From: Acidobacteriota bacterium | GTDB lineage: Bacteria > Acidobacteriota > Blastocatellia > Pyrinomonadales > Pyrinomonadaceae | Direction of reading: 5' to 3' | DNA: 38,762 nucleotides | Assembly (NCBI GenBank): GCA_031362765.1 | Contig: JANLTD010000877.1 | Span: forward strand, 1-38,762 | Part shown: positions 25,510 through 36,536 of the stretch, piece after piece | Layout: each line of letters begins with the position of its first letter | How positions within the stretch are numbered: the stretch's first letter is position 1 | The notes under the pieces: model-generated | What the model was told of the DNA's origin: nothing | Databases searched by the model: none | Seen by the model: the letters and a program-made list of their open reading frames with translations, nothing else | Made by a program: the position numbers and the translations under genes

Positions 25510-27890
<2,381 letters not shown>

Positions 27891-28064
27891 TGGAGACTTT
27901 TAACCAACGAATAATATGAGTGTTTTTGATGAAATTGTAAAAATACAGGAAATTTCACAAAAAACCTTGCTTCATAAATCAATTCTGAACCGTTTTTTTG
28001 ATAAAGGCTTATCCTACTATTCCTTGATTTTGAGTTTTTTGAAGAAAATTGCACAAAAATAGAA

Positions 28065-29066
28065 TTATGTTTTCAAAGCGTCCCGGATTGATTTTGAATG
28101 TTTGTCTTTTTTAACCGCGAGTCTTTGGACATAAATTTGCGTCGTTTTAATATTGCTGTGTCCCAAAGCCTCTTGCGTTTCCGCCATTGATTCTGAATAT
28201 TCCGAAACAATTTTTGCAAAAGTGTGCCGTAGCCGGTGAATGTGAAAATGCTTGATGTCGGCTTCGATAGCGTAAGCTTCCATCCGGCGGGCAAATCCGT
28301 GAGACGTCAAGCCTTTCTTTTTAGTTGAGCCGGCTCCCTTATCGTGCCGCAGCCAAAGAGGTTCATCTTCGCCGAACATTTCCGTTCGACCGGTCGCTTC
28401 CAGATATTCAAACAAAGCGTTTTTGGTGGTTTCGTCATCCAGTTCAAAATTGAGGAAAAAACCGCCTTTGACCTTTGCCTTGATAAAAAATCTACCTTCT
28501 TTGATCTCGATACTATTGCCGCGAAGCCCGATGATCTCGGCGCGTCGCCGTCCGGTCGCGACATAAAATTGTAAGATCGCCAAATCGCGCAGATGCACCG
28601 GCTTTTTACCCATCGCATGACACGCAACAATTTCCAACAATTTTCCTAATTCTTCACGCGATAAAGCCTTGACGCTTTCCGATTGAAAGGGTTTCGCGGC
28701 TTTCGGCAGCGAAACTTTCGCCGGATTGATCGGAATAAGGCGCATCATTCCGACTTCATTTCGCAAATATTCAAAAAACTGGGAAAGTGCCGAAATCCGG
28801 TTATAAACGGTGCCATCCGCAAGTCCTTCGGTTTTCAGACTCCAGCGCCATTCTTCAACGTCGCCCGGCAAAACCCGTTCGGCGCTTTTGCCGCAAAAAT
28901 CAAAAAAATCAAAAACGGCTTTACTTTTATCATTGCGAATATCGTTGCTTCGTTTAAGAGATGAATTAACCGTTCGGGTCAACCAACTCTCAACGACCGC
29001 ATTAACATCAAGCGAAACTGTAAAATTTTCAGAGTTTGGAATTTGGAGTTCTTCAGAAGTTTTCAC
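28065..29066 (-). CDS. Tyrosine recombinase / phage-type integrase
   Basis: Catalytic residues lie in ATGRRRAEI, HIHRLRHTFA and LGHSNIKTTQIYV. N-terminal SAM-like core-binding domain. Confidence 0.9.
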   Translation of the reverse strand: MKTSEELQIPNSENFTVSLDVNAVVESWLTRTVNSSLKRSNDIRNDKSKAVFDFFDFCGKSAERVLPGDVEEWRWSLKTEGLADGTVYNRISALSQFFEYLRNEVGMMRLIPINPAKVSLPKAAKPFQSESVKALSREELGKLLEIVACHAMGKKPVHLRDLAILQFYVATGRRRAEIIGLRGNSIEIKEGRFFIKAKVKGGFFLNFELDDETTKNALFEYLEATGRTEMFGEDEPLWLRHDKGAGSTKKKGLTSHGFARRMEAYAIEADIKHFHIHRLRHTFAKIVSEYSESMAETQEALGHSNIKTTQIYVQRLAVKKDKHSKSIRDALKT

Positions 29067-29100
29067 AAAGTGATTTTAGATCAGTTTTACTCAAAAATCA

Positions 29101-29131
29101 AGGTTACACATTTGGCAGAAATGTGTAACCT
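29101..29131 (-). terminator. Perfect 13-bp inverted repeat (possible terminator of the CBASS cassette or an int operator)
   Basis: aggttacacattt-ggcag-aaatgtgtaacct. On the minus strand it is followed by cttgattttt. It lies 35 nt upstream of the integrase start. Confidence 0.4.
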
Positions 29132-29164
29132 TGGCATAAATTGATTGGGTCGTTACAAGTTTTT

Positions 29165-29240
29165 GTCAATTTACCCATTAGCAATCATCGTGGAACCATA
29201 AGCTGTCACTGAATAACCCATAAGTTGTCATTGTGAAAAT
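29165..29240. repeat. IR-L: cluster of three direct ~15-bp motifs (consensus ACCCATAAGCTGTCA) at 21-22-bp spacing
   Basis: Copies at 29173-29187 (acccattagcaatca), 29194-29208 (aaccataagctgtca) and 29216-29230 (acccataagttgtca). The reverse complement aligns with 34506-34610. Confidence 0.7.
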
Positions 29241-29330
29241 TTTCTTAATTTTCAATAATCATTTTACAGGGTTTCACTAAGGTCAGTAGTAATTTCTAAT
29301 AGCTGAAGAATGGCTGCTTGAAGATCTTCC

Positions 29331-30467
29331 TTATTTGTGCTCGATTTCAAATGCTTTTGTAAATCCTCCCGTTTTCCAATTTTGATCGTACAGTACTAAT
29401 GGCAATTGAGACTTCGGATTCCAGACACGACCTAATTCAATGCACGCTGAAACCGGCATAACCGGAAAAATATGAAGTTTGACATCCTCGCCATGAAATA
29501 GTTTTATTTCATCCAAAAGGCTTCGAATAACAGTTCTATATTCGCTTAAATGCTCCCTCTTGCGAATAAAATCATTGTTGGGATTATTGATTGTCAATTC
29601 CCAAATGGAACAGTCGTTGCCCAAAACTTTCTTTATTCTTTCATTGGAGATCGTCGCACTAAGCGAAAACTTGAGAGCAATGGTAGTGGTTTTGTGCTCG
29701 GGTTTATTGATAATGTAATTCACAATTGAAGGATCGTCTTCAAACCAAGCCCATGTTGATTCGGGTTCTTTTTTAATTTGGTAAACATCTGCTGGAAAAA
29801 TGTCTCCAAACAATGTGCCGAGTTTAATAAGCAGCGGTTGGGCAGCAAAACCGAAAATGGAATAGTGTTTAACGGGTCTTTCCGCTCGCATTTGAGTTAT
29901 CTTTCGCTCAAACAGTCTTTCTAAATTTCTAACTTCCGTATTCCAGAATTCTGGAGTATGGTCTTCATCCGCATTATTCTTGAGACTTAATTCTATGCAG
30001 CTTGCCTCAGCCGGGAAGCGAAATGGCACTAATCCTTCGTTAGCGCAATTTAAATTAAGAGGTGTATTATGTTTTCCAATATTCGACCCGTAAAGAACGA
30101 CATTGCTTCTTTTCTCATCTTTGATTTCCGTTAGAAGCCTAATTCTTTCCTCATGCTTGTGCTTCATACCCAGTAATCTCTCTTCTGGATGACCTGCTAT
30201 ATCTACTTTATCAATGAGCCGATGATGAATGTCGCAAAGCAACATTAAATTAGAAATTTCTTTAGCTAATAACGGAGAACGTATTATATCCCCGCGCGGA
30301 CCGCCCGGCTCGTCCGCAACGATATGTGCAACATATGCATAGTTGGATTTAACTTTAGTCAACAGATCTTCATAGAGAATTTCATTGCACCCGTCATACT
30401 CGCAACGCCCAGCAGATTGTGCCCATAAAATGAATAGTTTTCGTGGCGGAATTTTGGTTTTGCTCAT
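29331..30467 (-). CDS. cap5: CBASS effector, Cap5-like: HNH endonuclease fused to SAVED sensor domain
   Basis: N-terminal HNH (GRCEYDGC...YVAHIVADEPGGPRG...NLMLLCDIHHRLID), followed by a ~260-aa SAVED-sized domain ending HIFPVMPVSACIELGRVW. ATG at 30467 is preferred over the track's GTG at 30530. Confidence 0.8.
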   Translation of the reverse strand: MSKTKIPPRKLFILWAQSAGRCEYDGCNEILYEDLLTKVKSNYAYVAHIVADEPGGPRGDIIRSPLLAKEISNLMLLCDIHHRLIDKVDIAGHPEERLLGMKHKHEERIRLLTEIKDEKRSNVVLYGSNIGKHNTPLNLNCANEGLVPFRFPAEASCIELSLKNNADEDHTPEFWNTEVRNLERLFERKITQMRAERPVKHYSIFGFAAQPLLIKLGTLFGDIFPADVYQIKKEPESTWAWFEDDPSIVNYIINKPEHKTTTIALKFSLSATISNERIKKVLGNDCSIWELTINNPNNDFIRKREHLSEYRTVIRSLLDEIKLFHGEDVKLHIFPVMPVSACIELGRVWNPKSQLPLVLYDQNWKTGGFTKAFEIEHK

Positions 30468-30605
30468 AAGTATAAGTGTTTTAGGAATGATTCTAATTAA
30501 TATCCTTGTTTTGATTGTGTTCCATCTCACGCAATTTAGTTACCGAGGAACGCTCTTCGCTTCGCTTTCTTTGTCAATCAATTGATGATGAATAGTGCAA
30601 ATTAG

Positions 30606-30769
30606 CTGATACCAACGGATTTTGTGGTCAAATAAAGCTGTTGTTGAAAACAACAGGGTTAGCTTGACGACAATTTTGTGGTTGTAGCTTTGCACTTTGC
30701 AAAAAAGCTATGGTTTTCAAGGATTTTGTAGTTTGGTAAAAAGCCAACCACAAAATCCGTTGGTATCAG
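30606..30769. mobile_element. MITE-2: 164-bp element with perfect 23-bp TIRs and a 7-bp target-site duplication, inside the CBASS operon
   Basis: TIR ctgataccaacggattttgtggt (30606-30628) is the exact reverse complement of 30747-30769. It is flanked by aaattag at 30599-30605 and 30770-30776. Interior has extra ATTTTGTGGT-like copies and small hairpins. Confidence 0.8.
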
Positions 30770-30920
30770 AAATTAGCATTAGGTTAGTGATACCTGACTT
30801 TAATTTTTCTGAAAGAATTACTTCTTCGGAAGAATCTTAATTTTAGTCTGCTATTATGTAGGCTAAGTAAGACTGCTTAAAATGCGATCCAGTGAGATTG
30901 GCTTCATATAGCTTATAGTA

Positions 30921-31346
30921 CTACGGATGCTCCGCCCGACTACCGCACCATTCTCCAGTAGCTAACCAAATTTCATAATGAAGCAGCCAGAGTGATGTCC
31001 ACGGAATGATTGTGTTTGCTATCAGTTTCGAAGGCACCCATTCACCATACTTTGACCGGTAAAGGCAAAGAACTTTCCCTCCAAACACATGTGGAATCTT
31101 CTCGCCAGGTCGGGTCTTAAGAACTGGATCCAGAACACGGACCTCAGGTCGCTCGCCGAATCGGTATATGATTTGAACCGTATACACGATACTAAGGTGA
31201 GACGGATGAAGTTTCCCAATCCAGATCAACTTGGTGCCCTTGGTTAGGACAATTTTCGATTCTGGGAATTTACTTCTTAGCTCAACACTTTGTACCGCGA
31301 GTGAGAGCGAACGGTCTGAGGTTCGTCTCTGTTGATTAATCGCCAT
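30921..31346 (-). CDS. Stand-alone prokaryotic E2 (ubiquitin-conjugating-like) protein of E2-only CBASS
   Basis: IPHVFGGKVLCLYRSKYGEWVPSKLIANTIIPW parallels the UBC core HPN..G.ICL...W.P with a candidate catalytic Cys. 141 aa. The start overlaps the CD-NTase stop by 11 nt. Confidence 0.65.
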   Translation of the reverse strand: MAINQQRRTSDRSLSLAVQSVELRSKFPESKIVLTKGTKLIWIGKLHPSHLSIVYTVQIIYRFGERPEVRVLDPVLKTRPGEKIPHVFGGKVLCLYRSKYGEWVPSKLIANTIIPWTSLWLLHYEIWLATGEWCGSRAEHP

Positions 31347-32520
31347 ACCAAGTGTTTTTAACGACAGTCGTGCCGACTGTGGAATTGAGTAAGCCCGATT
31401 GTGATTGCATCTTCAATTCACCTTTTATCTGACTTTCGTCAACACCTTGACCATATCGTTCCATGCTTCTGGTAACAACCTCTGATCCGAACGATTCGGA
31501 TAAGTGTTCAGCAATGTTATTCAGTCCCTGTTGCTGCAGGAGCAACTCCATGTCGTATTTGACTACTGACAACCATTCAAAGAAACGCTCGGCTCGCTGA
31601 GGAAATTCGTTCCATTTGTCAGCAAAATTCTCTTTTGGATTGACGGGATTCGGTATCCACCAATCCTCGTCAATTTTGCTGATACTGCCTTCCATTCTGG
31701 AAATTATTCTGGTTAATGCCTGATATAAATCAACTTCATTTTGATAAGCCTGTGCTGCTAGCGTTGTGATTATTACAGAAATAGGTTTGTCATCTGGGTC
31801 TCCTTGATATCTAATGTCACGATGACGTTTTAATATCTGGACGGAGATCCGGAGTGGTGTTTTCACAGTGTCTTCTGCAATCTTTTCAACCTCTACGTTT
31901 CCAGCACGAGCCATCGAAGCTCGTTTTGTTTCAAATGCAACCGATTCTCTCTCTCGGAACCAGTATGCATAAGCTTTAGGGTTGCTGTGCTGCCACGCAC
32001 GAAGTTGTTTATCGGTCAACAAAATACTTGTCTCAATTGAGCGGTTGAACAGATTTCCTTCTTCATCTGGTAAAGCCGGTAGGACATCCATGTGAAAGCG
32101 ACCGTTATAATTCATCGCCCAACATCGGCGGCGCCTTTCCAATTTTGGTATTTCCTTCCCTTCTCGTTTCCGATGTTCGATATATCTTTTCAGTTGTTCA
32201 CCAGCTCGCTCGACCAATTCCTCCTGTGAGATATTCGTTTTTGACAGGTAACGTAGATAAACAAGGTCTACATCGTAACCGCAATCTGAGGAAATCGGCT
32301 GGATGGACGTTCCCAAACGCACCGACCCTTGTGGGTAAATCTCCGAGTTTGTTCGATAGAGATCTTCATTATCTTTTCGAATCCACGCTCCGAGATGGTT
32401 GTATTTCCTAACCATCTCCTCTCTTAAGGCGTTTGGTATGTCCAGGTCGCTTGCAATCAGCGTCAATAAATTACCAAGCTGCTGCTCCCGTGTCATACCG
32501 ATACTTATTCTGTCATCCAT
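31336..32520 (-). CDS. CD-NTase (cGAS/DncV-like, SMODS-type nucleotidyltransferase)
   Basis: Pol-beta NTase signature YPQGSVRLGTS ... YDVDLVY ... FHMDVLPA. SD gggagg lies 8 nt upstream of the ATG. The C-terminus is ...NTWYGD. Confidence 0.8.
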   Translation of the reverse strand: MDDRISIGMTREQQLGNLLTLIASDLDIPNALREEMVRKYNHLGAWIRKDNEDLYRTNSEIYPQGSVRLGTSIQPISSDCGYDVDLVYLRYLSKTNISQEELVERAGEQLKRYIEHRKREGKEIPKLERRRRCWAMNYNGRFHMDVLPALPDEEGNLFNRSIETSILLTDKQLRAWQHSNPKAYAYWFRERESVAFETKRASMARAGNVEVEKIAEDTVKTPLRISVQILKRHRDIRYQGDPDDKPISVIITTLAAQAYQNEVDLYQALTRIISRMEGSISKIDEDWWIPNPVNPKENFADKWNEFPQRAERFFEWLSVVKYDMELLLQQQGLNNIAEHLSESFGSEVVTRSMERYGQGVDESQIKGELKMQSQSGLLNSTVGTTVVKNTWYGD

Positions 32521-32550
32521 AATTTGTTACCTCCCGTTAAACTGTCCTAG

Positions 32551-32596
32551 TTAATTTTCAGAAAGCTCCCATTAAGCTTTCTCCAATCAAAATTAA
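32551..32596. promoter_or_regulatory. 46-bp nested palindrome immediately upstream of the CD-NTase gene
   Basis: ttaatttt-c-agaaagct-cccatta-agctttct-ccaatc-aaaattaa. The outer (8 bp) and inner (8 bp) arms are both perfect complements. It lies 31-76 nt upstream of the cdn ATG. Confidence 0.5.
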
Positions 32597-32652
32597 CCAC
32601 CATTTATCCTAAAGCACATTCAGTGAAGAGACTGAATAACTACTTAAAAAAA

Positions 32653-33234
32653 TTATTCCACCATTGTGTAGATAAATTGATCCCGACCAGCATCCGACCT
32701 GTCTTTCTCACGTTTTACCAACCCCAAGTTAAACAACTTCGTTAATCTTTCGTTAGCTGTCGTATGATTGATGTTTAGCTGATCTTTAATATGATTAGCC
32801 GTTAGAGGCGACCGAGCATTCGCAATCAACTCAAACGTTTCAATATATGTCTTGTGCAATTTGCCGATGATTCTGTATCCATCACCTTTTCTTTCCAGCA
32901 TTGCTAAACCTAAACCCTCGAGAGCACTGATTAAATTTTCTCGTGTGTAATCGGTCAGATGTTCGACGGCTAAAAACTTATCAGTGAATTCCCCATTACG
33001 CGATAAGACTCCTTTTCCAAACAACTCATTAGCAAATGAAAAATCGAAAACCTCAATGTCTTGAACGTCGATGATCACTAATTCGAAAGATCCCGCCTTC
33101 TCAAAAAGCTCTCTCAGCTCCTTTCTAAAGAGCTTAGCTTTCTCACGCGTCCAAAGTTGCGAATCGCCGTTTCTATATAAAATAAGTCTTTCAGCCATCC
33201 TGTTCAGTGTAAGTACTGAATGAGCTTTTGTCAA
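32653..33234 (-). CDS. STAS-like (DUF4325-type) domain fused to a C-terminal winged-helix DNA-binding domain
   Basis: REKAKLFRKELRELFEKAGSFELVIIDVQDIEVFDFSFANELFGKGV fits the DUF4325/STAS-like pattern. The C-terminus LTANHIKDQLNINHTTANERLTKLFNLGLVKRE is a wHTH. Start is TTG at 33234 (3 nt after the upstream stop) or ATG at 33198. Confidence 0.6.
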   Translation of the reverse strand: MTKAHSVLTLNRMAERLILYRNGDSQLWTREKAKLFRKELRELFEKAGSFELVIIDVQDIEVFDFSFANELFGKGVLSRNGEFTDKFLAVEHLTDYTRENLISALEGLGLAMLERKGDGYRIIGKLHKTYIETFELIANARSPLTANHIKDQLNINHTTANERLTKLFNLGLVKREKDRSDAGRDQFIYTMVE

Positions 33235-33237
33235 GAA

Positions 33238-34092
33238 TTAAATTTGAGGTAGCGATAAGACAACAGTGACTCCCGGCATGGGTACAGAATAAAAGGAAAG
33301 CGTTTGATTTTTGTCAGCCCGATAATAAAACGTGGCGGATCCGGATGTGATTCGTAGGGAACCCAAATACTTCTCGACAATCCTGATCAGGTGGTAAAAA
33401 CCTGTTCCACGGGTCGGATCATCATATTGCGATAATCCGAGCTCTGTCGCCAGCTTGATTGCTTCAAAATCGCCTTTAAAAGCAGGAGTTTTAGGGTTTT
33501 CTCTCAGAGTTTGTGCCAGACCTACTCCACAGTCCGAAATTCCTATCTCCATAAATGAGCCTCCTCCCGAATTGAAAAGCTGTAGTGAGAAAAAGCCACA
33601 AGCTTCCTTATTGTGATCAATCGTATTTTGGCACATTTCTGATAAAGCGATTCCCAAGTTAAACGCATCATTTTTCGGATACTTCATTTCACCCCTTAGA
33701 GTATTGATCGTCCTCTTAAGTATCGGGTCAAGATCATTATGGTTTTCAATTTTGGTTAATTCAATTAGTTTTGTATCTAAACCCTTCCAATCGTCATAAT
33801 CGACAAGACGAGTCGGAAGTATCTGAGGATCAAAACGAACTATCTCACATGCAACATCAAGAAAACCTGATTTGACGAAGTAGTTCCTCAAATTTGGATT
33901 TGCGACCTTTATTTTCAGCGTTCGTCCTTTTTTAGAAAGATCGAAGCACAAAGCTGTCAGCGGCACCAGACCGCCGGGGCTGATGAAAGTAAAATTACTA
34001 AGATCCAAAACTGCATCCGTTGTTTCTAATAATCTTTGGTTACGAACTATGTCCGTAAAGGTAGTCGAAATGAGCTTATTAATGTTTGACAT
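33238..34092 (-). CDS. STAS-like N-terminal domain fused to GHKL (RsbW/SpoIIAB-type) ATPase/kinase domain
   Basis: N-terminus VLDLSNFTFISPGGLVPLTALCFDLSKKGRTLKI (STAS-like). GHKL N box LSEMCQNTIDH, G1 ISDCGVGL, G2 DPTRGTGFYHL. SD ggag lies 8 nt upstream. Confidence 0.65.
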   Translation of the reverse strand: MSNINKLISTTFTDIVRNQRLLETTDAVLDLSNFTFISPGGLVPLTALCFDLSKKGRTLKIKVANPNLRNYFVKSGFLDVACEIVRFDPQILPTRLVDYDDWKGLDTKLIELTKIENHNDLDPILKRTINTLRGEMKYPKNDAFNLGIALSEMCQNTIDHNKEACGFFSLQLFNSGGGSFMEIGISDCGVGLAQTLRENPKTPAFKGDFEAIKLATELGLSQYDDPTRGTGFYHLIRIVEKYLGSLRITSGSATFYYRADKNQTLSFYSVPMPGVTVVLSLPQI

Positions 34093-34318
34093 TTATTAAC
34101 TCCGAACCAATAGAGAATAAATATAAGGACAAAAACTGATTCGAGGCAGATTTGGAATCCCAAAAAACACACTTATAATAAAATATTTTCCGGATAAGTT
34201 CTAGAGTTTTGTAATACAAATTTTCCAAGCTGAGATTAAAATGGCAAAAATTCACTAATCCTTCAGTGGCTACTATTGATGAAAATAACTTTTATTCACT
34301 GTCAGTGACAATTCTCAC

Positions 34319-34492
34319 TCAACGAGCAATTATTGCCTGGCTATGTTTATCCTTCTTAAATCTGATTTTATTGACATGTTGACGTGTTGTTTCAAGATTA
34401 CTATGACCAATTGCATCCTGTGTTTCCAGTAAACCATTACCTTCAGCGACTATTCGGTCAAATGTATGGCGAAATTGATGGATATGAAAATG
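34319..34492 (-). pseudogene. Tyrosine-recombinase remnant (C-terminal 57 codons only)
   Basis: The minus-strand translation is HFHIHQFRHTFDRIVAEGNGLLETQDAIGHSNLETTRQHVNKIRFKKDKHSQAIIAR*. It aligns with the C-terminus of the 28065-29066 integrase. An in-frame TGA lies directly upstream, and the catalytic Tyr position is His. Confidence 0.75.
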
Positions 34493-34505
34493 TCAGATTC
34501 TAGCC

Positions 34506-34610
34506 TGACACTTTAGGGTAAAATTCTATAACTAATGACAGCTTATGGGTAAATGGTGACTGTAAGCTATTGATTCTAGGTAAATGTTCGTGACAGGTTA
34601 TGGGTTAATT
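34506..34610. repeat. IR-R: cluster of TGACAGCTTATGGGT-type motifs, inverted relative to IR-L
   Basis: tgacactttagggta (34506-34520), tgacagcttatgggt (34536-34550, exact reverse complement of the consensus), tgacaggttatgggt (34591-34605), plus GGTAAATG repeats. It starts about 14 nt from the break point of the integrase remnant. Confidence 0.7.
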
Positions 34611-34862
34611 TACATTTCTAACTTAAGAACTTCTCTTTTGTAAATAACTTTCTATAAATTAGATAATCATAAGCTATTTTTTATCTCCTAAATTCCAAAC
34701 TCGGCCGTCCGTAATTAACAAAAAGTTTGTTTCAGGATTCGTCGATGGTTAGCGCATTTCTAATCCAAATAATTGTGTTATGAGCTAAACAGTTCAAAAG
34801 CGAAGGTGTCAGTGTCTTTATGTAAGTGAATTTTCATGAATGATGAATTCGGCAGCTGTTGC

Positions 34863-35822: not shown

Positions 35823-35996
35823 AAAATTGTTTTGATTTTGACGATTAAATATCACGGAATTTCCGAAATATGGTTTCCCTCATTCTAACTCTTTTCCAAA
35901 AGAAATAACAAATATTTGGAAAAGCGGATAGGGCTAACGCATCTTAATTTTTCAAAAACACTCAACTGTGGCAATCTCTGTTTTCAGAAGGAGATT

Positions 35997-36536
35997 ATGA
36001 AAAACTTTCTGACCGACAGTGAAATGAAAAAGTTTCTCGCCGCCACCCGCCACAGCCGTCACGGAGTTCGCAATTTCTGTTTGGTGCTGACGGCTTACCG
36101 GCACGGACTGAGGGTTTCCGAACTCGTTGATATCCGCCTCAAAGATTTGGATTTGGAAACCGGCAGGTTATTTGTTCGCCGGCTCAAAGGAAGTCTCTCG
36201 ACTCATCAGCCGATTGAAGGCGACGAACTGCGGGCGATCAGAGCGTGGCTCAGGGAAAGAGAAAATTATCCGAACTCAAGTTCAAATTATTTATTCCTCA
36301 GCGAACGCGGTCCGATGACCCGCCAAGCGATCAACTATCTGGTCGAACAAAACGGCATTCGTGCGAAACTAAATTTCAAGGTCAATCCGCATATGCTGCG
36401 GCATTCAACCGGCTACTACTTAGCCAACAAAGGCTGCGACACCAGACTCATCCAGGATTACCTCGGACACAAAAACATCACGCATACCGTTCGTTACACG
36501 CGAACCGCGCACCGCTTTGAAGGACTTTGGCGGTAA
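35997..36536 (+). CDS. Small FimB/FimE-like tyrosine recombinase
   Basis: ATG at 35997 with a strong SD aaggag. Motifs: AYRHGLRVSEL, HMLRHSTGYYLANKGCDTRLIQDYLGHKNITHTVRYT. About 180 aa, as in fimbrial-switch invertases. Confidence 0.85.
   Translation: MKNFLTDSEMKKFLAATRHSRHGVRNFCLVLTAYRHGLRVSELVDIRLKDLDLETGRLFVRRLKGSLSTHQPIEGDELRAIRAWLRERENYPNSSSNYLFLSERGPMTRQAINYLVEQNGIRAKLNFKVNPHMLRHSTGYYLANKGCDTRLIQDYLGHKNITHTVRYTRTAHRFEGLWR

What the first reader, a model, noticed from the sequence alone, without database searches (positions are those of the whole stretch)
29165..34610. A 5.4-kb CBASS + STAS/GHKL cassette bracketed by ~80-bp inverted clusters of a 15-bp motif, with an intact integrase outside and an integrase stump inside
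IR-L (29173-29230) has three direct copies of ACCCATAAGCTGTCA-like 15-mers spaced 21-22 bp apart, about two helical turns. IR-R (34506-34605) has the same motif in the opposite orientation, including one copy that is the exact reverse complement of the consensus. The reverse complement of IR-L aligns with IR-R over roughly 75 bp.

IR-L lies between the integrase start (29066) and the cassette. IR-R begins about 14 nt from the point where homology to the integrase C-terminus breaks off (remnant 34319-34492, with the Tyr position mutated). All five cassette genes lie between the repeats.

This pattern fits three models. It could be recombinase arm-type sites at the two ends of an integrated or transposed defence cassette. 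It could be a recombinase-invertible segment. It could also be the scar of tandem element insertion. Any of these would explain how a CBASS module is mobilised as a unit.
Basis: seen in the sequence. Interest (0 to 1): 0.65.

Follow-up and report, generated by a model that had tools for sequence, protein, structure and literature searches.

The report
CBASS cargo inside mini Tn7-like transposon
The two repeat clusters are the right and left ends of a Tn7-type transposon that has lost its own transposition genes and carries a five-gene anti-phage cassette, so this is an ordinary though neatly resolved case of how bacterial defence genes travel.

Summary
The 15-mer occurs three times at 29173-29230 (+) and three times at 34507-34605 (-), and nowhere else as a cluster in this 5.5-Mb MAG or in 400 genomes of its class.

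The interpretation needs correcting. These are not integrase arm sites. They are transposase-binding-site arrays of a Tn7-like transposon.
- In all but one independent copy, the outermost site is preceded by TGT-N7.
- The left cluster is tightly packed (21-22 bp), as in a Tn7 right end. The right cluster is spread out (55/30 bp) and holds a perfect IHF consensus between sites 1 and 2, as in the VchCAST left end.
- In a metagenome contig the same array sits directly upstream of tnsA-tnsB-tniB-tniQ.
- Two other contigs carry the same cassette at 88-91% identity in unrelated surroundings. Their homology to the window stops exactly at the TGT/ACA termini.
- A 91%-identical integrase in a congener has no 15-mers.

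The element (29164-34614, 5451 bp) has no tns genes and no clean 5-bp duplication. Its two flanks come from two different recombinase-upstream regions, so it is probably a deleted or hybrid non-autonomous derivative. CBASS is already known as Tn7-like cargo, so this is a new member of a known kind.

The parts
28065..29066 (-). Intact Xer-like tyrosine recombinase (int1, 333 aa). It lies outside the transposon, with its start codon 98 bp from the right-end terminus.
   Evidence: Pfam Phage_integrase 6.9e-24. The best NCBIfam hits are XerA/XerC/XerD, all below cut-off. A 91% ortholog in G010 has no 15-mers nearby.
29099..29133 (.). Perfect 15-5-15 palindrome CAAGGTTACACATTT-GGCAG-AAATGTGTAACCTTG. 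Candidate dif-like core site or operator of int1, 30 bp from the transposon terminus.
   Evidence: the repeat finder I10. The arms are conserved in G010 with a different spacer. A related AAGGTTACAC-N13-CTGTAACCT lies upstream of a 37%-identical homologue. The function is inferred.
29164..29230 (+). Right end of the Tn7-like element: terminal TGTCAATT followed by three binding sites R1 (29174), R2 (29195) and R3 (29217), spaced 21-22 bp.
   Evidence: L063 carries the same Cap5 junction, then R1 plus the terminus (22 of 26 identical), and its flank diverges right after ACA.
29331..30530 (-). Cap5-type HNH-SAVED effector. The likely true start is near 30467, as in the 378-aa relative.
   Evidence: Pfam SAVED 3.5e-49 and PADLOC SAVED_HNH 1e-129. 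91.7% DNA identity to L064.
30599..30776 (.). 164-bp MITE with perfect 23-bp terminal inverted repeats and an AAATTAG duplication, inserted between the E2 and Cap5 genes. It is absent from the relative.
   Evidence: the repeat finder I1. The window has about 280 extra nt here compared with L064, and the flanks can be read in the printed sequence.
30921..31346 (-). Stand-alone E2-like CBASS protein (E2-only, type II-short).
   Evidence: PADLOC E2 1.1e-45. The homologue on L062 is called PF26395 E2-CBASS.
31336..32520 (-). CD-NTase (oligonucleotide cyclase).
   Evidence: PADLOC Cyclase 5.8e-120. Pfam SMODS and DncV-like_NTFase.
32653..33234 (-). STAS-like (DUF4325) plus winged-helix protein.
   Evidence: Pfam DUF4325, TrmB and MarR-type wHTH. 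NCBIfam Lrs14-like HTH.
33238..34092 (-). STAS plus GHKL ATPase/kinase-like protein.
   Evidence: Weak Pfam STAS and HATPase_c_2 hits. phrog_3364 1e-30. Homologues at 86-91% head the same cassette.
34319..34492 (-). Pseudogene stump: the last ~58 codons of an int1-like recombinase, with Tyr replaced by His. It lies inside the transposon and abuts the innermost left-end site.
   Evidence: 30 of 54 identical to int1. It is absent from L062, which has 355 nt of AT-rich DNA instead.
34507..34614 (-). Left end of the Tn7-like element: terminus TGTAAATT (ACA at 34612-34614), site L1 (34591-34604), IHF consensus AATCAATAGCTTA (34563-34575), site L2 (34536-34549) and an inner site (34507-34520, one base deleted).
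   Evidence: It is 82.6% identical to the L062/L064 left end, and the homology starts exactly at TGT. L033 has the same layout.
34628..34683 (+). Right flank outside the element. It is homologous to the upstream region of a different recombinase family (the L039 type), including TTTGTAAATAACTTTCTATA and ATCATAAGCTATTTT.
   Evidence: Local alignment with contig C203 of the same genome scores 55, and 0 of 2000 shuffles reach that. It also matches L036 and L039.

Best explanation
The two clusters are the right end (29164-29230) and left end (34614-34507) of a Tn7-like transposon. The 15-mers are the cores of its ~20-bp TnsB-type transposase-binding sites. The 5451-bp element carries a five-gene cargo: a STAS-GHKL protein, a STAS-wHTH protein, and an E2-only CBASS made of a CD-NTase, an E2 and a Cap5 HNH-SAVED effector. 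It has no tnsA/B/C/tniQ genes, so it is non-autonomous. It could move only if a related element supplied the transposase in trans, binding the arrays, pairing the ends (probably with IHF bending the left end) and cutting at the terminal TG/CA.

The element lies 30 bp from a palindromic site upstream of a Xer-like recombinase gene. That recombinase does not use the 15-mers. The integrase stump is decayed cargo that abuts the innermost left-end site.

Shown: the end architecture, the exact termini, the link of this motif to a tns operon, and the presence of the same cargo with the same ends in other contexts.

Inferred: binding by TnsB, mobilisation in trans, and an origin by internal deletion and/or recombination between two copies.
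For: 1. Terminal structure. The outermost site is preceded by TGT-N7 at both window ends and in L024, L034, L036, L041, L042 and L062; L039 has TGA. Walker et al. 2023 (PMC10201428) show that Tn7-like ends need a terminal TG about 8 bp from the first binding site, with three asymmetrically placed sites per end.
2. Asymmetry. The left cluster has 21-22-bp spacing. The right cluster has 55/30-bp spacing.
3. IHF site. A perfect IHF consensus WATCARNNNNTTR lies between L1 and L2 in the window, L033 and L064. Only 6 matches occur in the whole window on both strands. The VchCAST left end has the same feature.
4. Link to a tns operon. In L034 the array TGT-N7-CCCATAAGCTGTCA x2 lies about 150 bp upstream of a TnsA-like gene, then TnsB (Mu-transpos_C), TniB and TniQ.
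5. Exact termini. L062/L064 carry the same cassette at 91% identity plus the same left end, and homology with the window starts exactly at TGT. L063 carries the cassette at 88%, shares the Cap5-to-right-end junction and R1 plus the terminus, and its flank diverges right after ACA.
6. Distribution. The metagenome scan found 32 contigs (GC 0.37-0.66) with the paired motif. Most are arrays at 21-22-bp spacing, often at contig ends or next to defence genes. Three of the 32 (L023, L025, L050) are an unrelated 18-bp tandem repeat.
7. Not linked to the integrase. The G010 integrase (91% identical) has its palindrome but no 15-mer.
8. Precedent. CBASS is a documented Tn7-like cargo (Benler et al. 2021, PMC8649781).
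Against: - There is no 5-bp target-site duplication. The flanks are GTTTT and TTTCT and share only TTT.
- No tnsB or tniB homologue was found in this MAG. The MAG is only 78% complete.
- The only tns operon seen beside this motif is in a GC-rich contig (L034). No autonomous low-GC relative was found. On the L062 contig no right end or tns genes appear within the ~29 kb examined past the left end.
- R1 has 3 mismatches and the inner left-end site has a 1-base deletion, so the copy may be immobile.
- In Acinetobacter lwoffii plasmids a similar triple repeat lies 730 bp from a giant tyrosine recombinase with no tns genes nearby.
- The similarity to published TnsB-site sequences such as Tn6677 rests on my memory and could not be verified in text.
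Confidence: 0.8

Rival explanations
1. The 15-mers are arm-type or accessory binding sites of the adjacent tyrosine integrase (28065-29066). The cassette is integrated or excised by site-specific recombination, as in lambda attL/attR or the Tn4430 TnpI resolution site.
For: An integrase gene starts 107 bp from the left cluster, with a palindromic core-like site in between. An integrase stump abuts the other cluster. L036 and L039 also have a recombinase gene 150-170 bp from such a cluster. A. lwoffii plasmids have a similar repeat near a giant tyrosine recombinase.
Against: The 91% ortholog in G010 keeps the palindrome but has no 15-mer. The motif does not resemble the palindrome arms. Pfam detects no N-terminal arm-binding domain in int1. 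The same arrays occur with tnsABC-tniQ (L034) and beside unrelated genes with no integrase. Homology between copies ends at TGT/ACA outside the arrays, not at a core between them.
Confidence: 0.05
2. The segment between the inverted clusters is flipped by a recombinase, either int1 or the nearby FimB/FimE-like invertase at 35916-36536, to switch expression of the defence operon.
For: The repeats are inverted. A small tyrosine-type DNA invertase homologue lies 1.3 kb away (NF007370, 188.6 bits, below the 221 cut-off).
Against: The cassette has the same orientation relative to the left and right ends in the window, L062 and L063. The two clusters differ in internal spacing, which does not fit equivalent crossover sites. 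The arrays occur singly next to tns genes elsewhere. No inverted repeats were found around the invertase gene that involve the clusters.
Confidence: 0.03
3. The clusters are iteron- or operator-like sites bound by the cassette's own STAS-wHTH protein, or by another regulator, and control transcription of the CBASS operon and the integrase.
For: The 21-22-bp spacing is iteron-like. The right cluster lies upstream of the operon and the left cluster upstream of the integrase. The wHTH protein travels with the left-end array in L062.
Against: The arrays occur in many contigs without this cassette or any wHTH homologue (tblastn found none). Distant homologues of the GHKL/wHTH pair head other operons. 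These loci (L066-L069) were not scanned for the 15-mer motif. Regulator binding does not explain the conserved TGT-N7 or the homology breaks exactly at the termini.
Confidence: 0.03
4. The two ends never moved together. They are solo ends of two different decayed Tn7-like insertions that happen to bracket the cassette.
For: There is no target-site duplication. The two flanks come from different recombinase-upstream regions. L062 has only the left end and L063 shows only R1 of the right end.
Against: The same cassette is joined to this family's left end in L062 and to its right end, at an identical internal junction, in L063. The cargo therefore belongs to the element. The ends are correctly oriented, one of each type. 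This rival overlaps with the hybrid-of-two-copies version of the best explanation.
Confidence: 0.07

Closest known systems
Tn7-like transposons carrying defence cargo (Benler et al. 2021, mBio, PMC8649781)
   Same: Inverted arrays of transposase-binding sites define the left and right ends. The cargo between them is anti-phage genes, and CBASS is among the commonest cargoes.
   Different: This copy has none of the core tns genes, no 5-bp duplication, and is only 5.45 kb. The host is an acidobacterial MAG. The class is inferred to be Blastocatellia from the two-contig 3.7-Mb relatives; that is my inference and was not tested.
VchCAST/Tn6677 end architecture (Walker et al. 2023, NAR, PMC10201428)
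   Same: An 8-bp terminal sequence with an essential TG, about 8 bp to the first site, three sites per end with asymmetric spacing, and an IHF consensus between the two outer left-end sites.
   Different: There is no CRISPR-Cas or TniQ here. IHF dependence is only inferred from the consensus. The sequence likeness of the sites themselves is from memory and unverified.
Tn6022/AbaR islands with a XerC-like recombinase and a dif-like site (Peters lab 2024, NAR, PMC11014353); TnsF selectors (Faure et al. 2023, PMC10293859)
   Same: A Tn7-like element is physically associated with a Xer-type tyrosine recombinase and a palindromic dif-like site. In Tn6022 that system recombines adjacent elements and creates new variants. 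Tyrosine-recombinase-derived proteins also act as Tn7 target selectors.
   Different: Here the recombinase and palindrome lie outside the element and are unrelated in sequence. No TnsF or TniQ is present. Any role in targeting or shuffling is speculative.
Laboratory mini-Tn7 and natural non-autonomous Tn7-like derivatives
   Same: Two ends flank cargo, with transposition functions supplied in trans.
   Different: This is a natural element whose helper has not been identified.
Tn5053/Tn402 'res hunters'
   Same: A TniA/TniB/TniQ-type transposon inserts beside a recombinase-bound resolution site in a fixed orientation.
   Different: The relative with this motif (L034) has a TnsA-like gene, so it is Tn7-like rather than Tn5053-like. 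Targeting of the recombinase site is not shown. L063 and L062 ends lie beside other genes.

Membership tests
Tn7-like transposon (ends) | Termini 5'-TG(T)...(A)CA-3', with a terminal segment of about 8 bp before the first transposase-binding site. | tested here: met
   TGTCAATT+TACCCAT at 29164 and the reverse complement of ...ATGGGTTAATTTACA at 34614. The same TGT-N7 occurs in 7 other independent arrays.
Tn7-like transposon (ends) | Three or more ~20-bp binding sites per end, inverted between the ends and asymmetrically spaced (right end tight, left end dispersed). | tested here: met
   Right end: 3 sites at 21-22 bp. Left end: 3 sites at 55/30 bp (4 sites in L033 and L062).
Tn7-like transposon (ends) | Independent copies share sequence up to the terminus and diverge immediately outside it. 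| tested here: met
   Left end against L062/L064. Right end against L063.
Tn7-like transposon | 5-bp target-site duplication. | tested here: not met
   GTTTT on the left and TTTCT on the right. The flanks derive from two different recombinase-upstream regions.
Tn7-like transposon | Core genes tnsA, tnsB, tnsC/tniB and tniQ/tnsD lie between the ends. | tested here: not met
   None in 29164-34614 and none found in the MAG. All four are present next to the same motif array in L034. This copy is therefore filed as a non-autonomous derivative of the family, not as an autonomous member.
Tn7-like transposon | TnsB binds the repeats and catalyses cleavage and joining at the termini. | not testable with these tools
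   Needs EMSA and a transposition assay.
Lambda-type integrase arm sites / TnpI-type accessory sites | The sites accompany the recombinase gene in its orthologues and flank a core crossover site. | tested here: not met
   G010 has a 91%-identical integrase with the palindrome but no 15-mer within 21.7 kb. Homology breaks lie outside the arrays, not between them.
Recombinase-invertible segment (Fim/Hin/shufflon type) | Both orientations exist in a population, with equivalent inverted crossover sites. | tested here: inconclusive
One orientation is seen in three contexts, and the clusters are not equivalent in spacing.
CBASS type II (E2-only, 'short') | CD-NTase plus a stand-alone E2-like protein plus a cyclic-nucleotide-sensing effector. 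| tested here: met
   PADLOC Cyclase 5.8e-120, E2 1.1e-45, SAVED_HNH 1.2e-129. Pfam SMODS and SAVED.

The most novel reading that the evidence does not exclude
This end family (TGT-N7-CCCATAAGYTGTCA) may belong to Tn7-like transposons that prefer the upstream or dif-like regions of Xer-type recombinase genes, with the right end facing the recombinase start. That geometry is seen in the window, L036 and L039. The neighbouring recombinase and palindrome would then recombine adjacent copies, in the way XerC-like/dif-like does for Tn6022. That would produce gene-less hybrid cargo carriers like this one and would explain the internal integrase stump, the mismatched flanks and the missing duplication.
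Probability: 0.15. Interest if true: 0.6.

Novelty: new member of a known kind. Interest (0 to 1): 0.38.

Why it matters
- It replaces an open-ended 'recombinase sites?' puzzle with a concrete, testable identity. It gives base-pair boundaries for a small natural Tn7-like cargo carrier holding an E2-only CBASS and a STAS/GHKL-wHTH pair.
- It defines a widespread end motif, found in soil and freshwater metagenomes across GC 0.37-0.66, that can be used to delimit related elements.
- If the recombinase-proximal placement turns out to be targeted, it would add a new attachment-site class to Tn7-like biology. As it stands, the finding is an expected way for defence genes to move.

Tried and rejected
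1. Opposite polarity. I first read TGACA as the outer terminus, with the cassette lying outside two elements. The stump abutting the cluster and the GC-rich 'abutted' arrays suggested this. I rejected it because TGT-N7 is conserved on the other side, the tns genes in L034 lie on the TGTCA side, and homology with L062 and L063 ends at TGT/ACA.
2. G010 as an exact empty site. The similarity after the palindrome is not significant (p = 0.14). Left of the integrase module the contexts also differ.
3. A decayed second right end at about 34727. Rejected, because GTAATTAAMAAAAAGTT is conserved in the unoccupied C203 locus.
4. The stump as a remnant of the L039-type recombinase whose upstream region flanks the element. 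Rejected, because the stump is int1-like: 30 of 54 identical against 10 of 36.
5. tRNA or integron-type attachment. There is no tRNA in the window and the integron-integrase scores are far below cut-off.
6. Helper genes in the MAG. None were found.
7. The motif in 400 genomes of the same class. Only the window's own genome has it. The genome-contig scan gave only two real acidobacterial hits.
8. Walking the L062 contig. About 29 kb past the left end was examined and held no tns genes or right end.
9. Sequencing-run search for inversion or excision junctions.
10. Checking the remembered Tn6677 site sequence in a paper's text. Not found.

Full report
**1. Observation**

The 15-mer ACCCATAAGCTGTCA with up to 3 mismatches occurs six times in the window against 0.48 expected by chance.
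- Three copies lie on the + strand at 29173, 29194 and 29216, spaced 21 and 22 bp.
- Two lie on the - strand at 34536 (exact) and 34591.
- A further - strand copy with a one-base deletion lies at 34507-34520.

In the whole 1301-contig MAG the motif clusters only here. A two-copy pattern found no other genome among 400 of the same class, so it is not a generic genomic repeat.

- An intact Xer-like tyrosine recombinase lies outside the bracket at 28065-29066.
- Inside, all on the minus strand, are a STAS-GHKL protein, a STAS-like/wHTH protein, a CD-NTase, a stand-alone E2 and an HNH-SAVED Cap5.
- 34319-34492 encodes the last ~58 residues of an int1-like recombinase, with His at the catalytic Tyr position.
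- One correction: the two clusters match motif by motif, not as a collinear 75-bp alignment, because their spacing differs.

**2. What the repeats are**

A metagenome scan for two adjacent copies returned 32 contigs with GC from 0.37 to 0.66. Most carry 2-4 copies at 21-22-bp spacing, often at contig ends. Three of them (L023, L025, L050) are an unrelated 18-bp tandem repeat.

*Terminal structure.* The outermost copy is preceded by TGT plus seven bases at both window ends (TGTCAATTTA-CCCAT at 29164; TGTAAATTAA-CCCAT read from 34614). The same holds in L024, L034, L036, L041, L042 and L062. L039 has TGA.

*Link to a tns operon.* In L034 the array lies about 150 bp upstream of a TnsA-like gene. 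A 698-aa Mu-transposase-type TnsB, a TniB ATPase and a 576-aa TniQ follow, and after them defence-type cargo.

*Match to published Tn7-like ends.* These are an 8-bp terminal sequence with an essential TG, about 8 bp to the first TnsB-binding site, and three sites per end placed asymmetrically. In VchCAST there is also an IHF site between the two outer left-end sites (PMC10201428).
- The window's left cluster is the tightly packed right-end type.
- The window's right cluster is the dispersed left-end type. It carries AATCAATAGCTTA at 34563-34575, a perfect WATCARNNNNTTR.
- The same consensus lies at the same place in L033 and L064. It occurs only six times in the whole window on both strands.

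**3. Exact boundaries and the cargo**

Homologues of the GHKL protein at 86-91% identity led to two other copies of the cassette.

*L062/L064 (a 169-kb contig).*
- The five genes are preceded by the same left end, with four sites and the IHF box.
- Alignment with the window begins exactly at TGT, and the outside flanks are unrelated.
- The homology covers the left end at 82.6%, is then lost, and resumes from 14 nt before the GHKL start to 12 nt after the Cap5 stop at about 91%.

*L063.* The cassette is followed by the same short Cap5-proximal junction. R1 plus the terminus then follows directly (GATGAGAGCTTATCGGTAAATTGACA, 22 of 26 identical), after which the flank differs.

The cargo is therefore tied to this end family in three unrelated contexts, and the mobile unit ends at 29164 and 34614 (5451 bp). 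The shared internal junction with different outside flanks suggests that the cassette plus right end moved after that junction formed.

**4. Why not the integrase**

- G010, a genome of the same genus, has a 91%-identical integrase with the same upstream palindrome, but no 15-mer anywhere on its 21.7-kb contig.
- The palindrome (29099-29133, a perfect 15-5-15) is the conserved cis-element of this recombinase. A 37%-identical homologue has a related inverted repeat. Its arms are unlike the 15-mer.
- Pfam shows no arm-binding domain in int1.
- The palindrome is best read as a dif-like core site or operator. This is an inference.

**5. What is unusual about this copy**

- It has no tns genes, and none were found in the MAG. 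The MAG is 78% complete.
- There is no 5-bp duplication (GTTTT against TTTCT).
- The left flank is int1 plus the palindrome plus 30 bp.
- The right flank (34628-34683) is significantly homologous to the upstream region of a different recombinase, the L039 type. An unoccupied copy of that region exists on contig C203 of the same genome. In L036 and L039 the same region lies between that recombinase and a right end of this transposon family.
- The simplest account of mismatched flanks with no duplication is homologous recombination between two copies inserted upstream of two different recombinase genes, or an equivalent rearrangement. This is inferred, not shown.
- The stump begins right after the innermost left-end site. 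L062 has unrelated AT-rich DNA at that position. I read the stump as decayed cargo. Deletions that reached into the end would have destroyed the element, which would explain a breakpoint at the inner edge of the array.

**6. Comparison with what is known**

- CBASS is a common cargo of Tn7-like transposons (PMC8649781).
- Tn7-like elements associated with Xer-like recombinases and dif-like sites that recombine adjacent copies are described for Tn6022 (PMC11014353). Recombinase-derived target selectors (TnsF) are also known (PMC10293859).
- The present element fits as a non-autonomous member of this world. It fails two membership features of an autonomous Tn7-like transposon: core genes and a target duplication.
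- Whether the recombinase-proximal position is targeted remains open. Three low-GC right ends face a recombinase start, but the distances differ (98, about 150 and about 170 bp), and the L063 and L062 ends lie beside other genes.

**7. Limits**

- No read-level test for excision or inversion was possible.
- The helper element is unknown.
- TnsB binding is inferred.
- My recollection that Tn6677 sites resemble this motif could not be verified.
- Earlier AI notes on dif-homing Tn7-like elements and mini-Tn7-like copies served as leads only.

Noticed in passing
window 30599-30776: A 164-bp MITE with perfect 23-bp terminal inverted repeats, flanked by AAATTAG on both sides, lies between the E2 and Cap5 genes. 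The 91%-identical cassette on L064 lacks it. The window has about 280 extra nt here in total.
   Followed up: partly
window 25510-27889 and 36561-~37400 (minus strand): There are two group II introns: a full copy with an RT-maturase-HNH ORF (25584-27272) starting about 175 nt downstream of the integrase stop, and an ORF-less mini copy next to the FimB/E-like recombinase gene (Rfam D1-D4 and domain V hits).
   Followed up: partly
window 32653-34092; L066-L069: In homologues at 44-45% identity, the STAS-GHKL plus DUF4325-wHTH gene pair heads operons with Multi_ubiq, Prok-E2_E and ThiF (E1) genes instead of CBASS. It looks like a portable two-gene module placed upstream of E2-containing defence systems.
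   Followed up: partly
L026-L028, L030, L037, L040, L045, L047-L049, L051, L052, L054, L057 (GC-rich soil contigs); L056 (Granulicella sp. S190, solo end): In acidobacterial contigs a left-type and a right-type array of the same motif are abutted head to head (...ACA-3 nt-TGT...). About 100-150 bp is conserved on each side, including the hairpin GGCCCATTCGAGTCCCAACGATCGAGTGGGCC. They occur in many unrelated contexts with no tns genes. This may be tandem-insertion junctions or a mobile unit of its own. Unexplained.
   Followed up: partly
L061 6940-7040 (Acinetobacter lwoffii plasmid pALWED3.6, NZ_CP032290.2, and 9 similar plasmids): Three ACACATAAGTTGTCA-type repeats at 21-22-bp spacing, with a possible TGT-N7 start, lie 730 bp downstream of a 1681-aa tyrosine recombinase gene. 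No tns genes are annotated nearby.
   Followed up: partly
window 27963-27969 and 29127-29133; L022 5360-6530: The region shared with G010 is only the integrase module (about 27969-29135). Both borders carry CAAGGTT-type half-sites, as if the integrase with its palindrome were itself a small mobile module. In G010 it ends inside the 3' end of a glycoside-hydrolase-like ORF.
   Followed up: partly
genome contig C203 1676-3498; window 35916-36536: The same genome has a second recombinase pair: an L039-type integrase (90% identical to L039's) next to a FimB/E-like small recombinase that is 77% identical to the window's. The upstream 'box+segment' there is unoccupied by any transposon.
   Followed up: partly
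L024, L041, L042: In GC-rich contigs the right end of this motif family starts 1-18 nt after the stop codon of an upstream gene (an RNase H-like gene, an unknown gene and a DotM-like gene). This is the classic Tn7-like placement downstream of a gene's 3' end and suggests different target selectors within the family.
   Followed up: no
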